64,000 nt of DNA from Escherichia coli (GCF_029227855.1 NZ_CP074356.1), one strand, 5' to 3'. Positions 7,560-10,449 are shown, counted from the first letter of the stretch. Notes: generated from the letters alone by a model not told the origin. Numbers and translations are program-made.

Positions 7560-7973
7560 ATGAGCGAAGCACTTAAAATTCTGAACAACATCCGTACTCT
7601 TCGTGCGCAGGCAAGAGAATGTACACTTGAAACGCTGGAAGAAATGCTGGAAAAATTAGAAGTTGTTGTTAACGAACGTCGCGAAGAAGAAAGCGCGGCT
7701 GCTGCTGAAGTTGAAGAGCGCACTCGTAAACTGCAGCAATATCGCGAAATGCTGATCGCTGACGGTATTGACCCGAACGAACTGCTGAATAGCCTTGCTG
7801 CCGTTAAATCTGGCACCAAAGCTAAACGTGCTCAGCGTCCGGCAAAATATAGCTACGTTGACGAAAACGGCGAAACTAAAACCTGGACTGGCCAGGGCCG
7901 TACTCCAGCTGTAATCAAAAAAGCAATGGATGAGCAAGGTAAATCCCTCGACGATTTCCTGATCAAGCAATAA
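7560..7973 (+). CDS. hns: Nucleoid-associated DNA-binding protein H-NS
   Basis: 137 aa [44 protein letters not shown] ... TWTGQGRTP; matches E. coli H-NS. Confidence 0.97.
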
Positions 7974-8000
7974 TCTTTTGTAGATTGCACTTGCTTAAAA

Positions 8001-8026
8001 ATCCCGCCATCGGCGGGATTTTTTAT
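8001..8026 (+). terminator. hns rho-independent terminator
   Basis: Perfect hairpin ATCCCGCC-atc-GGCGGGAT followed by TTTTTT. Confidence 0.7.
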
Positions 8027-8064
8027 TGTCCGGTTTAAGACAATTTAATAAGAATAAGCTATAA

Positions 8065-8776
8065 TAAATATCCTCCGGCATAGCCGGAGGTTTTTCAAAT
8101 GCGCCTATAAGGCTCTCTTACCAGCCGCGCCCTAACAGGCGCACACGATCTGACATTTGCATCCAACTTCGTTACTTACGGCCCGTAAACGGGCTGCCCG
8201 GATAGGGAATCGATAACTGCTCTCCCATTTTATCCTCTTCAAGCTGGTGCTTTATGTAATCCTGTATCTTCGCCGTGTTCTTACCCACCGTATCGACGTA
8301 GTACCCTCTGCACCAGAACTCCCTGTTCCTGTATTTGAATTTCAAATCACCAAACTGCTCGTAAAGCATCAGACTGCTTTTCCCTTTCAGATATCCCATA
8401 AAGCCGGATACGCTCATTTTGGGCGGGATCTCCACAAGCATATGGATATGATCTGCACAGCATTCAGCTTCCAGAATCCGTACACTTTTCCACTCACACA
8501 GCTTTCTCAAAATACTGCCTATTGCTCTACGCTTCTCTCTGTAGAACACCTGTCTTCGGTATTTTGGCGCAAAAACTATGTGATATTTACAGTTCCATCG
8601 GGTGTGCGCTAAGCTCTTTTCGTTCCCCATTGGGACCCCCTTTTGATTTCTTGTTTGACACTTGCAGTTGCCAGACCGCAAGGTGTTTTAACAAATCAAA
8701 AGGGGTTTTAATAACTGGCTTAAAGCTGAAAGCTTTCCGGAACCCCCAGCCTAGCTGGGGGTTTTCTGTGCACAAA
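8065..8776 (-). mobile_element. IS200 (IS200/IS605 family) copy 1, tnpA oriented on minus strand
   Basis: 712 bp unit repeated in direct tandem; contains Y1 HuH transposase ORF and terminal palindromes TCCTCCGGCatagCCGGAGG (8071-8090) and CCCCCAGCctaGCTGGGGG (8743-8761); boundaries ambiguous by +/-2 bp. Confidence 0.85.
8172..8630 (-). CDS. tnpA: IS200 transposase TnpA (Y1 HuH single-strand transposase), 152 aa from the internal ATG
   Basis: MGNEKSLAHTRWNCKYHIVFAPKYRRQVFY...HIHMLVEIPP (HxH motif) ...IQDYIKHQ (catalytic Tyr); ORF track's longer 169 aa version (8172..8681) starts at an upstream TTG. Confidence 0.88.
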   Translation of the reverse strand: MGNEKSLAHTRWNCKYHIVFAPKYRRQVFYREKRRAIGSILRKLCEWKSVRILEAECCADHIHMLVEIPPKMSVSGFMGYLKGKSSLMLYEQFGDLKFKYRNREFWCRGYYVDTVGKNTAKIQDYIKHQLEEDKMGEQLSIPYPGSPFTGRK

Positions 8777-9488
8777 TAAATATCCTCCGGCATAGCCGGA
8801 GGTTTTTCAAATGCGCCTATAAGGCTCTCTTACCAGCCGCGCCCTAACAGGCGCACACGATCTGACATTTGCATCCAACTTCGTTACTTACGGCCCGTAA
8901 ACGGGCTGCCCGGATAGGGAATCGATAACTGCTCTCCCATTTTATCCTCTTCAAGCTGGTGCTTTATGTAATCCTGTATCTTCGCCGTGTTCTTACCCAC
9001 TGTATCGACGTAGTACCCTCTGCACCAGAACTCCCTGTTCCTGTATTTGAATTTCAAATCACCAAACTGCTCGTAAAGCATCAGACTGCTTTTCCCTTTC
9101 AGATATCCCATAAACCCGGATACGCTCATTTTGGGCGGGATCTCCACAAGCATATGGATATGATCTGCACAGCATTCAGCTTCCAGAATCCGTACGCTTT
9201 TCCACTCACACAGCTTTCTCAAAATACTGCCTATTGCTCTACGCTTCTCTCTGTAGAACACCTGTCTTCGGTATTTTGGCGCAAAAACTATGTGATATTT
9301 ACAGTTCCATCGGGTGTGCGCTAAGCTCTTTTCGTTCCCCATTGGGACCCCCTTTTGATTTCTTGTTTGACACTTGCAGTTGCCAGACCGCAAAGTGTTT
9401 TAACAAATCAAAAGGGGTTTTAATAACTGGCTCAAAGCTGAAAGCTTTCCGGAACCCCCAGCCTAGCTGGGGGTTTTCTGTGCACAAA
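8777..9488 (-). mobile_element. IS200 copy 2, head-to-tail with copy 1
   Basis: Second 712 bp unit, about 99% identical to copy 1 with at least five substitutions (e.g. 8290 vs 9002, 8403 vs 9115, 8474 vs 9186); same terminal palindromes at 8783-8802 and 9455-9473. Confidence 0.85.
8884..9342 (-). CDS. tnpA: IS200 transposase TnpA, copy 2
   Basis: Protein identical to copy 1 TnpA; the nucleotide differences between copies are synonymous or outside the ORF. Confidence 0.88.
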   Translation of the reverse strand: MGNEKSLAHTRWNCKYHIVFAPKYRRQVFYREKRRAIGSILRKLCEWKSVRILEAECCADHIHMLVEIPPKMSVSGFMGYLKGKSSLMLYEQFGDLKFKYRNREFWCRGYYVDTVGKNTAKIQDYIKHQLEEDKMGEQLSIPYPGSPFTGRK

Positions 9489-9517
9489 AAAACGGCGTCG
9501 ATTGCTCAACGCCGTTT
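9486..9517 (-). terminator. galU rho-independent terminator
   Basis: On the minus strand: ACGGCGT-tgagcaatcg-ACGCCGT then U-run; the U-run abuts the IS200 copy 2 boundary. Confidence 0.6.
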
Positions 9518-9540
9518 CGTGGATAACACCGATACGGATG

Positions 9541-10449
9541 TTACTTCTTAATGCCCATCTCTTCTTCAAGCCAGGCTTTAAATTCCGTGCCAAGGGTGTT
9601 ATGACGAATACCGTATTCAACGAAGGCCTGCATGTAACCTAATTTATTACCGCAGTCATGGCTCTTCCCTTTCATATGATAGGCTTCCACCGTTTCTTTT
9701 TCGATCAGCATATCAATTGCGTCGGTGAGCTGAATTTCATCACCAGCTCCCGGAGGGGTTTTTGCCAGCAACGGCCAAATATCCGCGCTAAGTACGTAAC
9801 GACCCACAATAGCGAGATTAGACGGCGCAACATCCGCTTTCGGTTTTTCTACCACACCAACCATCGGTACGCTTTCACCCGGCGCTAATTCAACGCCTTT
9901 ACAATCCACAACGCCATATGCGGTAACATCAGCAACCGGTTCAACCATGATCTGGCTATGACCCGTTTCATCAAAGCGGCGGATCATCTCTGCCAGGTTA
10001 TCCTGTGACAAATCGGATTCATATTCATCCAGAATAACGTCAGGCAAAATAACAGCCACAGGTTCATCACCCACTACCGGGTGAGCACACAATACCGCAT
10101 GTCCCAGGCCTTTCGCCAGCCCCTGACGAACTTGCATAATAGTCACGTGCGGCGGACAAATAGACTGCACTTCATCAAGCAGTTGACGTTTTACACGTTT
10201 TTCCAGCATTGCTTCCAGTTCAAAACTGGTATCAAAGTGGTTTTCAATCGAGTTTTTAGATGAGTGAGTAACCAGCACAATTTCAGTAATGCCAGCCGCA
10301 ATACATTCATTCACGACGTATTGAATTAATGGCTTATCGACAAGTGGCAGCATCTCTTTCGGGATGGCTTTCGTCGCCGGCAACATCCTGGTTCCTAATC
10401 CCGCAACGGGGATAACGGCTTTTTTGACTTTCGTATTAATGGCAGCCAT
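9541..10449 (-). CDS. galU: UTP-glucose-1-phosphate uridylyltransferase GalU
   Basis: 302 aa [49 protein letters not shown]. Confidence 0.96.

What the first reader, a model, noticed from the sequence alone, without database searches (positions are those of the whole stretch)
8682..8776. IS200 left-end structured region sits ~40 bp downstream of the hns terminator in antisense orientation
The IS200 ends carry strong palindromes (CCCCCAGCctaGCTGGGGG at the transposase-proximal end; TCCTCCGGCatagCCGGAGG at the distal end). In Salmonella, as I recall, the IS200 left end acts as a transcription terminator and the tnpA 5' region yields regulatory RNAs. Here these structures are stacked between two convergent terminators, so read-through from hns or galU would be blocked repeatedly, and any IS200-derived RNA would be expressed next to the gene for the global silencer H-NS.
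Basis: inference. Interest (0 to 1): 0.4.

Follow-up and report, generated by a model that had tools for sequence, protein, structure and literature searches.

The report
Tandem IS200C behind the galU terminator
The flagged stretch is the well-known structured left end of an ordinary IS200C insertion sequence, present as a head-to-tail pair inserted exactly after the galU transcription terminator, so its position next to hns most likely reflects where this transposon family inserts and not any link to H-NS.

Summary
The palindromes are real and non-random. The window is E. coli, 100% identical to strain JNEC-KY178. Two RefSeq-annotated IS200C copies (711 and 712 bp, 5 SNPs apart) lie head-to-tail between the convergent hns and galU genes.

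The title mislabels the ends. Coordinates 8682-8776 are the transposase-proximal left end (LE) of the hns-proximal copy, about 715 bp from the hns terminator and abutting the second copy. The end about 37-40 bp from that terminator is the right end (RE).

The LE matches Rfam STnc490 at 146 bits. [quoted passage not shown] All of this is published biology.

Nothing ties the element to hns. It abuts the T-run of galU's terminator and leaves both native terminators intact. The same pattern holds at 11 other E. coli IS200C loci sampled, and in 101 of 118 LE flanks from Yersinia, Vibrio, Mailhella and others. Only 1 of 51 RE flanks show it.

The site is occupied in 121 of 5,426 complete E. coli genomes, and the tandem at this site occurs in this strain only. 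Tandem junctions elsewhere occur in 50 genomes.

Verdict: ordinary known element and low interest. The side observation of apparent terminator targeting is worth a note.

The parts
7560..7973 (+). hns coding sequence
   Evidence: 137-aa ORF; annotated as hns WP_001287378.1 in the identical RefSeq record.
7997..8026 (+). hns intrinsic terminator (12-bp stem, 3-nt loop, T-run), intact
   Evidence: Inverted repeat I6; DNA fold -12.9 kcal/mol, z -6.4; same sequence in genomes with an empty site.
8063..8773 (-). IS200C copy 1 (hns-proximal), 711 bp; ends ambiguous by up to 2 nt because of flanking T/A runs
   Evidence: Comparison with the K-12 and TUM14771 empty sites shows a 711-bp insertion; RefSeq annotates an IS200C family transposase here.
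8072..8090 (-). Copy 1 RE subterminal hairpin (CCTCCGGC-TAT-GCCGGAGG) followed by a 9-nt tail ATATTTATT; this is the IS end nearest the hns terminator
   Evidence: DNA fold -10 kcal/mol, z -5.1.
8172..8630 (-). Copy 1 tnpA, 152-aa Y1 (HUH) transposase
   Evidence: Pfam PF01797 Y1_Tnp, E 3.8e-38; annotated as WP_000526135.1.
8621..8711 (+). Copy 1 region homologous to the art200 antisense sRNA (Salmonella IS200 nt 153/154 to about 64), mapped by homology only
   Evidence: Coordinates transferred from PMC4513863 using the LE hairpin as anchor (nt 12-34 = 8763-8741); fold z -5.9; upstream TTTACA-18-TAAGCT conserved with IS1541.
8637..8705 (-). [quoted passage not shown]
   Evidence: Inverted repeat I2; Rfam structure alignment; MFE and centroid folds; corresponds to nt 69-138 in PMC4513863.
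8741..8763 (-). Copy 1 LE subterminal hairpin (AACCCCCAGC-TAG-GCTGGGGGTT): the published bidirectional terminator and the presumed TnpA-binding hairpin. This is the core of the flagged region
   Evidence: corresponds to nt 12-34 in PMC4513863.
8774..9485 (-). IS200C copy 2 (galU-proximal), 712 bp, with the canonical 10-nt RE tail ATATTTATTT at the junction with copy 1
   Evidence: 712-bp period and 5 SNPs against copy 1 (8289, 8403, 8484, 8682, 8721).
8784..8802 (-). Copy 2 RE hairpin
8884..9342 (-). Copy 2 tnpA (same protein as copy 1)
9352..9475 (-). Copy 2 LE structured region (terminator hairpin 9453-9475, small hairpin, SD-sequestering stem-loop 9349-9417)
   Evidence: Rfam RF01405 at 144.6 bits; inverted repeats I1 and I4.
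9486..9517 (-). galU intrinsic terminator (hairpin plus T7). The T7 run directly abuts the LE of copy 2 and is the inferred insertion target
   Evidence: Inverted repeat I7; DNA fold -13.4 kcal/mol; T7 is present unchanged at empty sites.
9541..10449 (-). galU coding sequence, co-oriented with both tnpA genes

Best explanation
The flagged region is the left end of one of two head-to-tail copies of IS200C, a known insertion sequence of the IS200/IS605 family that transposes as single-stranded DNA.

The hairpins have two roles. In single-stranded DNA they are the subterminal hairpins through which the Y1/HUH transposase TnpA recognises the ends (inferred from the IS608 paradigm). In RNA, the LE hairpin is the published bidirectional terminator that shields tnpA. 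[quoted passage not shown] Together these keep transposase expression very low.

The element lies where it does because IS200-group elements insert immediately 3' of the T-run of an intrinsic terminator, on the strand where the terminator reads hairpin then T-run. Here that is galU's terminator on the lagging-strand template. The insertion leaves the terminator intact. hns is simply the convergent neighbour.

The target T-run is retained 5' of the LE, and the element's own RE (a GC hairpin followed by ATATTTATT(T)) resembles such a target. A second copy can therefore land at the same place and produce the tandem. I favour copy 2 (galU-proximal) as the newcomer.

Shown here: element identity, structures, insertion point, intact terminators, the association of LE flanks with terminators, and the recurrence of tandems. 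Inferred: that the association reflects target choice, the recognition mechanism, the order of the two insertions, and all RNA expression.
For: Identity. The window is 100% identical to E. coli JNEC-KY178, where two IS200C tnpA genes are annotated. Both proteins match Pfam Y1_Tnp at 3.8e-38. Rfam RF01405 scores 146 and 145 bits on the two LEs. IS200C is 87.8% identical to Yersinia IS1541.

Insertion point. The empty site reads CCG-T7-ATAGC. The occupied site reads CCG-T7-[GTGCAC...ATATTTATT]-ATAGC. The insert is 711 bp with no target duplication.

Terminator association. Of 118 unique LE flanks from a genome-contig scan, 101 have a strict hairpin plus T-run abutting the IS. The controls give 44 of 5,000 at random positions and 859 of 9,715 after TTTT. 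Position -1 is T in 118 of 118 flanks, and -2 is T in 117 of 118. The distance from the last G/C of the hairpin to the IS peaks at 6-7 nt. Only 1 of 51 RE flanks has an abutting terminator. Six single-copy E. coli loci and six further tandem loci show the same arrangement; five of the six tandems have a co-oriented annotated gene on the LE side.

Strand. GC skew of the + strand is negative in 7 of 8 bins, so the tnpA (top) strand is the G-rich strand, which is the lagging-strand template. This fits the family's bias for the lagging-strand template (PMC5027513).

Geometry. In IS608 the RE cleavage site lies 10 nt 3' of the RE hairpin, and 4-nt guide sequences lie 5' of each hairpin foot (PMC3201880). 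Here the canonical RE tail is 10 nt, and AAAA precedes both hairpins.

Tandems recur. An RE-LE junction is found in 50 of 5,426 E. coli genomes. The six sampled lie at six different loci, with periods of 711-713 bp. Tandems also occur in Y. pestis.

Published RNA roles: PMC4513863 and PMC5435999.
Against: No transcript or transposition data exist for this strain.

The terminator association could partly reflect which insertions survive rather than where the element inserts. A 2025-26 preprint reads the same association as regulation of transposase expression (10.1101/2025.07.22.666184).

IS608, the mechanistic paradigm, needs only a tetranucleotide target and no hairpin.

From my own memory, IS200 and IS1541 insertions inside coding genes are documented (hisD984, inv). 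Targeting is therefore a preference, not an absolute rule.

Which copy is newer is not resolved. The IS ends are ambiguous by up to 2 nt, and single-copy alleles at this site carry mosaic SNP haplotypes.

The closest relatives of this strain have an empty site, so the dimer could have been imported as a whole.
Confidence: 0.75

Rival explanations
1. The stacked IS200 hairpins act as a host-relevant insulator between hns and galU, and IS200-derived small RNAs made here matter because they are expressed next to the gene for H-NS.
For: Each copy supplies terminator-like hairpins in both directions. The LE hairpin is a published bidirectional terminator (PMC5435999). The art200 and 5'tnpA sequences and structures are conserved.
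Against: Both native terminators are unchanged relative to empty-site genomes. 5,142 of 5,426 genomes have the empty site and only 121 are occupied. The closest relatives of this strain have the empty site. The same element sits behind many unrelated terminators. The known RNAs act on tnpA or in trans, and this genome carries many more IS200C copies (23-24 matching places). No paper in the searchable library links IS200 with hns and galU.
Confidence: 0.08
2. Terminator adjacency is survival bias, not target choice. IS200 inserts at T-rich sites in general. Only copies that land just behind a terminator persist, because those sites are neutral for the host and shielded from read-through.
For: The preprint 10.1101/2025.07.22.666184 reports terminator-like sequences over-represented upstream of ISs, most strongly for IS200/IS605, and interprets this as limiting transposase expression. 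IS608 recognises only a 4-nt target.
Against: The association is strictly one-sided: 86% of LE flanks against 2% of RE flanks. The spacing is fixed at 5-8 nt from the hairpin. The abutment is exact at the nucleotide level, with T at -1 in 118 of 118 flanks. Only 8.8% of TTTT sites in the same loci follow a hairpin. The element already carries its own terminator, which makes an external one redundant.
Confidence: 0.17
3. The tandem arose by homologous recombination rather than by a second transposition into the same target. Possible routes are integration of a double-stranded IS circle into the resident copy, unequal exchange, or import of a pre-formed dimer.
For: Compared with the single-copy allele of strain EC16, copy 1 and copy 2 look like reciprocal chimeras. 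SNP haplotypes at this site are mosaic across strains, which suggests frequent conversion. The closest relatives have an empty site.
Against: The chimera pattern disappears when other alleles are considered: strain MEW carries the copy-1 haplotype, and WP2-W18 and FDAARGOS_448 are one SNP from copy 2. A lone IS offers no flanking repeat for unequal exchange. The intermediate of this family is single-stranded. Junction T-counts vary (periods 711, 712 and 713) across seven tandems at seven loci, as expected for separate insertion events.
Confidence: 0.2
4. The tandem is an assembly artefact and only one copy exists.
For: It is the only one of 5,426 genomes with a tandem at this site.
Against: The copies differ at five sites, and all five are polymorphic among the six single-copy alleles compared at this site. 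Forty-nine other genomes carry tandems at other loci. The period and junction match those other cases.
Confidence: 0.03

Closest known systems
IS200 of Salmonella enterica (archetype of the IS200 group; PMC4513863, PMC5435999)
   Same: About 0.7 kb with a single tnpA. LE hairpin terminator at nt 12-34, SD-sequestering stem-loop at nt 69-138, and antisense art200. The LE matches the Rfam STnc490 model over its full length (positions 1-124 of 124) at 146 bits.
   Different: This is the E. coli variant IS200C (711/712 bp against 707 bp), present as a tandem dimer. No expression or trans-target data exist for E. coli. The Salmonella target invF is, to my knowledge, absent from E. coli.
IS1541 of Yersinia pestis / Y. 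pseudotuberculosis
   Same: 87.8% nucleotide identity. The LE hairpin is identical apart from one base in the 5' leader. The antisense promoter-like region is identical. The same terminator-abutting insertion pattern and tandem dimers are seen.
   Different: 710 bp, far higher copy number, different host.
IS608 of Helicobacter pylori (mechanistic paradigm of IS200/IS605; PMC3201880, PMC5027513)
   Same: Y1/HUH TnpA. Subterminal hairpins at both ends, no terminal inverted repeats and no target duplication. The target is retained 5' of the LE. The RE cleavage site lies 10 nt 3' of the RE hairpin, matching the 10-nt canonical tail here. Bias for the lagging-strand template.
   Different: IS608 also carries tnpB. 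Its target is the tetranucleotide TTAC, 19 nt from the LE hairpin, with no hairpin requirement. Here the distance is 12-14 nt, and the apparent target is a T-run preceded by a GC hairpin.
Group IIC (bacterial class C) introns and other hairpin-seeking mobile elements (IS that insert into REP/BIME sequences, integron attC)
   Same: Insertion just downstream of an intrinsic-terminator stem-loop or other single-strand hairpin (background in PMC7923331). This works like what is seen here for site choice.
   Different: Unrelated machinery: a retroelement ribozyme with reverse transcriptase, or DDE or tyrosine recombinases, against an HUH single-strand transposase here. The resemblance concerns target type only, not family membership.

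Membership tests
IS200/IS605 family, IS200 group (IS200C) | Encodes a Y1 (HUH) transposase TnpA of about 150 aa | tested here: met
   Both ORFs match Pfam PF01797 Y1_Tnp at E 3.8e-38, 130.7 bits against a cut-off of 23. H61-I62-H63 and Y125 (IQDYIKHQ) can be read in the translation; assigning them as catalytic residues is inference from IS608. RefSeq names the protein an IS200C family transposase.
IS200/IS605 family, IS200 group (IS200C) | No terminal inverted repeats; distinct subterminal hairpins at LE and RE | tested here: met
   The LE hairpin (CCCCCAGC/GCTGGGGG) and RE hairpin (CCTCCGGC/GCCGGAGG) differ from each other. Both are stable in single-stranded DNA.
IS200/IS605 family, IS200 group (IS200C) | Insertion without target-site duplication, with the target sequence retained 5' of the LE | tested here: met
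   The empty site CCG-T7-ATAGC becomes CCG-T7-[IS, 711 bp]-ATAGC. Only a T/A-run ambiguity of up to 2 nt remains.
IS200/IS605 family, IS200 group (IS200C) | Small size (about 0.7 kb) with tnpA only and no tnpB | tested here: met
   711 and 712 bp, each with a single 152-aa ORF.
IS200/IS605 family, IS200 group (IS200C) | Active (top) strand on the lagging-strand template | tested here: met
   GC skew of the + strand is negative in 7 of 8 bins, so the tnpA strand is the G-rich strand. The replication direction itself is inferred from the skew.
IS200/IS605 family, IS200 group (IS200C) | TnpA-dependent single-strand excision and integration | not testable with these tools
   Requires transposition assays. 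The variable occupancy (121 of 5,426 genomes) and the tandems are only indirect signs of mobility.
IS200 LE regulatory RNA module (Rfam RF01405 STnc490 / art200 / 5'tnpA) | Sequence and structure match above the family's gathering score | tested here: met
   146.1 and 144.6 bits against a gathering score of 56, with full model coverage. The match is on the tnpA-sense strand.
IS200 LE regulatory RNA module (Rfam RF01405 STnc490 / art200 / 5'tnpA) | Stem-loop that sequesters the tnpA Shine-Dalgarno sequence | tested here: met
   CCCCUUUUGAUUU pairs with AAAUCAAAAGGGG, which covers the AAGGGGG sequence 8 nt upstream of the ATG. The pairing appears in both the MFE and centroid folds, z -4.4.
IS200 LE regulatory RNA module (Rfam RF01405 STnc490 / art200 / 5'tnpA) | Antisense promoter and expression of art200; processing of tnpA to 110-nt and 90-nt species | tested here: inconclusive
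   TTTACA-18-TAAGCT upstream of the mapped start site is identical to IS1541, which expresses STnc490 according to PMC4513863. It falls below the generic promoter scan threshold. No expression data are available.
Intrinsic (Rho-independent) terminator, for the LE hairpin | GC-rich stem-loop followed by a U-run | tested here: inconclusive
   The 10-bp stem is strong. In the hns (+) direction it is followed by TTTTCTGT. In the galU/tnpA (-) direction it is followed by only UUCCGG. The generic scan reported the RE hairpins but not the LE hairpins. Terminator activity is known only from Salmonella experiments.

The most novel reading that the evidence does not exclude
IS200-group elements (IS200, IS200C, IS1541 and relatives in Vibrio, Mailhella, Bacillota and others) are dedicated terminator-seekers. 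Their single-strand transposase complex would recognise an extruded intrinsic-terminator hairpin plus T-run on the lagging-strand template as a pseudo right end, and would insert 6-7 nt 3' of the hairpin. This would explain their harmless intergenic 'dormant' distribution, their co-orientation with the upstream gene, and the recurrent head-to-tail dimers. It would be a mode of target recognition beyond the 4-5-nt guide rule established for IS608 and ISDra2. In the searchable literature I found it described only as a statistical association, read there as regulation of expression.
Probability: 0.35. Interest if true: 0.5.

Novelty: already known. Interest (0 to 1): 0.25.

Why it matters
For the finding as written, it matters little. 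It is an annotated IS200C with the textbook IS200 left-end structures, and there is no evidence that it affects hns or galU.

Two by-products may be useful. First, IS200-group left ends abut an intrinsic terminator in about 86% of flanks, against 2% for right ends. If this reflects target choice, it extends the target-recognition rules of single-strand HUH transposons. It would also give a simple explanation for why these elements are tolerated and appear dormant. Second, head-to-tail IS200C dimers recur in about 1% of complete E. coli genomes. They create RE-LE junctions identical to the junction of the transposition intermediate, which could be substrates for further TnpA activity or for recombination.

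A practical point for annotation: short hairpins with T-runs flanking IS200 copies should not be read as locus-specific regulatory features.

Tried and rejected
1. A 171-nt query across the RE-LE junction, meant to count tandems, was uninformative. The tool joins the LE and RE pieces of a single IS into one place. I replaced it with an 80-nt junction query at E <= 1e-20.

2. I first read the '1,938-1,949 genomes with at least 80% coverage' as occupancy of the hns-galU site. I rejected this because the IS alone satisfies the coverage criterion. Junction-specific queries give 121 occupied and 5,142 empty genomes.

3. A Campbell-type origin (a circular IS recombining into the resident copy) was suggested by comparison with EC16 alone. 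I dropped it as the preferred model after five more alleles showed that the five SNPs segregate as mosaics.

4. I tried to tell import from de novo insertion using flanking SNPs. The flanks are too conserved to decide.

5. I looked for close relatives to identify the ancestral allele. The best are only 99.0-99.1% identical over 25 kb, and they have the empty site.

6. Literature. No relevant paper links IS200, hns and galU; the single hit is an unrelated RNA-interference paper. Searches for IS1541 or IS200 plus terminator targeting found only the 2025-26 preprint. Odaert et al. 1998 on IS1541 insertion sites is not held, so earlier descriptions of the target cannot be excluded.

7. The weak third Rfam hit at 7990-8092 (E 0.034, 25.6 bits) is the RE hairpin and the hns terminator aligned by chance to the model's hairpins. 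I rejected it.

8. The promoter scan found no more sites than shuffled sequence gives (3 found against 3.6 expected).

Full report
WHAT IS THERE

The window is Escherichia coli. Positions 7900-9600 are 100% identical to strain JNEC-KY178 (NZ_AP045174.1). RefSeq annotates the region as adhE, tdk, hns, two IS200C tnpA genes, galU and rssB.

hns (7560-7973, + strand) and galU (9541-10449, - strand) converge. Between them lie two head-to-tail copies of IS200C with a 712-bp period.

Comparison with the empty site of K-12 and of three closer relatives fixes the insertion. The empty site CCG-T7-ATAGC, read on the galU strand, becomes CCG-T7-[GTGCAC...GGAGGATATTTATTT][GTGCAC...GGAGGATATTTATT]-ATAGC.
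- Copy 2 (8774-9485, galU-proximal) is 712 bp.
- Copy 1 (8063-8773, hns-proximal) is 711 bp.
- There is no target duplication, and the ends are ambiguous by at most 2 nt.

The copies differ at five positions (8289, 8403, 8484, 8682, 8721). Both encode the same 152-aa protein (WP_000526135.1), which matches Pfam Y1_Tnp at 3.8e-38.

CHECK OF THE OBSERVATION

Both palindromes are present exactly twice and are far from chance. All of them fold as stable hairpins in either strand.

The title, however, merges two different ends. Region 8682-8776 is IS nt 1-92 of the transposase-proximal left end (LE) of copy 1, plus 3 nt of copy 2's right-end (RE) tail. Its hairpin (8741-8763) is about 715 bp from the hns terminator (7997-8026) and abuts copy 2. 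The end that lies 37-40 bp from the hns terminator is the transposase-distal RE (hairpin 8072-8090). The antisense orientation of tnpA relative to hns and the two flanking convergent terminators are correct.

THE LE IS THE PUBLISHED IS200 REGULATORY MODULE

Rfam RF01405 (STnc490) matches 8640-8763 and 9352-9475 over its full length, at 146 and 145 bits against a gathering score of 56.

The sense RNA folds into three elements: the 10-bp terminal hairpin, a small hairpin, and a long stem-loop that pairs CCCCUUUUGAUUU with AAAUCAAAAGGGG and so covers the Shine-Dalgarno sequence. The fold scores z -4.4. The antisense 92 nt folds at z -5.9.

Ellis et al. (PMC4513863) place the following in Salmonella IS200:
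- terminator at nt 12-34;
- tnpA start near nt 40;
- stem-loop at nt 69-138;
- start of the 90-nt antisense art200 at nt 153/154.

Anchoring on the hairpin, these map to 8763-8741, about 8735, 8706-8637 and 8622/8621 for copy 1. Add 712 for copy 2.

The sequence upstream of the mapped art200 start (TTTACA-18-TAAGCT) is identical in IS200C and in Yersinia IS1541. IS1541 expresses this RNA according to the same paper. PMC5435999 states that the LE repeat is a strong bidirectional terminator stopping about 85% of upstream transcripts, and that tnpA is processed to 110- and 90-nt regulatory RNAs. Expression in E. coli at this locus was not, and could not be, tested.

WHY IT SITS HERE

The LE of copy 2 abuts the T7 run of galU's own intrinsic terminator (AAACGGCGTTGAGCAATCGACGCCG-TTTTTTT|GTGCAC), which is left intact. 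The hns terminator is also untouched.

This arrangement is not peculiar to the locus. Six single-copy IS200C loci taken from other E. coli genomes represent five distinct sites (the sodA site was sampled in two strains). At all of them the LE abuts the T-run of the terminator of the co-oriented upstream gene: sodA, fadR, bhsA, exbD, htpG.

They came from Yersinia pestis, Vibrio, Brenneria, Dickeya, Edwardsiella, Mailhella/Desulfovibrio, Oxalobacter, Bacillota and Saccharibacteria MAGs. The results:
- 101 of 118 unique LE flanks carry a strict GC hairpin plus T-run directly against the element.
- Controls give 0.9% at random positions and 8.8% after any TTTT in the same loci.
- Position -1 is T in 118 of 118 flanks, -2 in 117 of 118, and -5 in 114 of 118.
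- The distance from the last G/C of the hairpin to the IS peaks at 6-7 nt; 90 of 110 flanks fall within 5-8 nt.
- On the RE side only 1 of 51 flanks has an abutting terminator.

The + strand of the window has negative GC skew in 7 of 8 bins. The tnpA (top) strand and the hairpin-then-T-run reading of the galU terminator are therefore on the G-rich strand, which is the lagging-strand template. This is where the family is known to excise and integrate (PMC5027513). The hns terminator also reads hairpin-TTTTTTATT, but on the other strand.

I infer that IS200-group elements choose the T-run behind a terminator hairpin as their target. In IS608 the target tetranucleotide is read by a 4-nt guide located 5' of the LE hairpin, and the RE is cleaved 10 nt 3' of its hairpin (PMC3201880). 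Here AAAA precedes both hairpins, the target and the RE tail are T-rich, and the canonical RE tail is 10 nt. That fits the guide rule, and it makes the element's RE look like a terminator. These mechanistic steps are inference.

[quoted passage not shown] I could not access the older IS1541 insertion-site paper.

THE TANDEM

Junction-specific 80-nt queries give the following counts in 5,426 complete E. coli genomes:
- hns-galU site occupied: 121 genomes (both junction queries agree).
- hns-galU site empty: 5,142 genomes.
- Tandem at this site: only JNEC-KY178 aligned over the full 1,701-nt query as one piece, among the top-ranked rows listed.
- RE-LE junction anywhere: 50 genomes.

The six tandems I opened lie at six other loci: behind fdnI, ydcL, icd and prc, between nifJ and ompN, and on an IncI1 plasmid. 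In every case the outermost LE abuts a terminator T-run. The periods are 711-713 bp, and the two copies differ at 0, 0, 0, 0, 2 and 2 positions. IS1541 dimers with a 710-bp period occur in Y. pestis.

Tandems are thus a recurrent by-product. The target T-run survives 5' of the LE and can be reused, or the RE can itself serve as a target. In the window, the junction carries the canonical 10-nt tail while the outer RE has the 9-nt tail seen in most single-copy alleles at this site. This mildly favours copy 2 as the newcomer at the reused galU target.

The history is not resolved. Single-copy alleles at this site carry mosaic combinations of the same five SNPs. The nearest relatives (99.0-99.1% identical over 25 kb) have the empty site.

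VERDICT

The features are real, but they are the standard anatomy of a known, annotated insertion sequence. The coordinates and the title disagree about which end is meant. Nothing links the element functionally to hns. Repeated blocking of read-through is plausible but redundant with two intact native terminators.

I rate the finding as already known and of low interest (0.25). The side result, one-sided nucleotide-precise association of IS200-group left ends with intrinsic terminators and about 1% tandem dimers in E. coli, is the only part that might repay follow-up. I give 0.35 probability that it represents a target-recognition mode not yet described as such.

Noticed in passing
window 9486-9517 with 9475-9485; loci L009-L128, L132-L143: IS200-group left ends abut an intrinsic-terminator-like hairpin plus T-run in 101 of 118 unique flanks across many phyla. 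The spacing is fixed at 6-7 nt and T at position -1 is invariant. Right-end flanks show this in 1 of 51 cases. This suggests that terminators are the insertion target.
   Followed up: yes
window 8734-8813 (RE-LE junction); L138-L143; L074, L075, L077, L091, L121: Head-to-tail IS200C dimers occur in 50 of 5,426 complete E. coli genomes. At least 7 different loci are involved, one of them on an IncI1 plasmid. IS1541 dimers occur in Y. pestis. Junction T-counts vary (periods 710-713 bp), and the two copies are identical in 4 of the 7 E. coli dimers compared (six opened plus the window).
   Followed up: yes
window 8640-8763 and 9352-9475, minus strand: Rfam RF01405 'STnc490' matches the tnpA-sense strand and includes the LE terminator hairpin. 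Ellis et al. 2015 define STnc490/art200 as the antisense RNA spanning IS nt 153 to about 64. As matched here, the model describes the tnpA 5' region rather than art200.
   Followed up: partly
window 8037-8065, plus strand: The junction of the hns-side flank with the IS right end turns the TATAAA of the empty site into a consensus TATAAT, with AAGACA 17 nt upstream (10 of 12 matches). Any transcript would run directly into the RE hairpin plus T5 at 8072-8095. The scan found no more promoter-like sites than in shuffled sequence.
   Followed up: no
window 8063-9485 compared with L003-L008 and L129-L131: Single-copy IS200C alleles at the hns-galU site in six other strains carry mosaic combinations of the same five SNPs and two length forms (711 and 712 bp). 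The three closest relatives of this strain have an empty site. This points to repeated insertion, gene conversion or recombinational import at this site.
   Followed up: partly
window 8682 and 8721 (IS nt 92 and 53); L141: The two LE polymorphisms co-vary as A-C or G-T, both in this tandem and in the EC16 icd tandem. The nt-92 change is C/U opposite a G in the SD-sequestering stem, so pairing is kept. The three SNPs inside tnpA must be synonymous, because both copies encode WP_000526135.1.
   Followed up: no
window 7997-8026: The hns terminator differs from K-12 by one extra A in the 5' A-run and a G-to-T change in the loop. All ten non-K-12 strains compared share this form, whether or not the IS is present.
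   Followed up: no
window 7990-8092, minus strand: A weak sub-threshold Rfam STnc490 hit (25.6 bits, E 0.034) is formed by the RE hairpin and the hns terminator aligning to the model's two outer hairpins. I judged it a chance resemblance between hairpins.
   Followed up: yes
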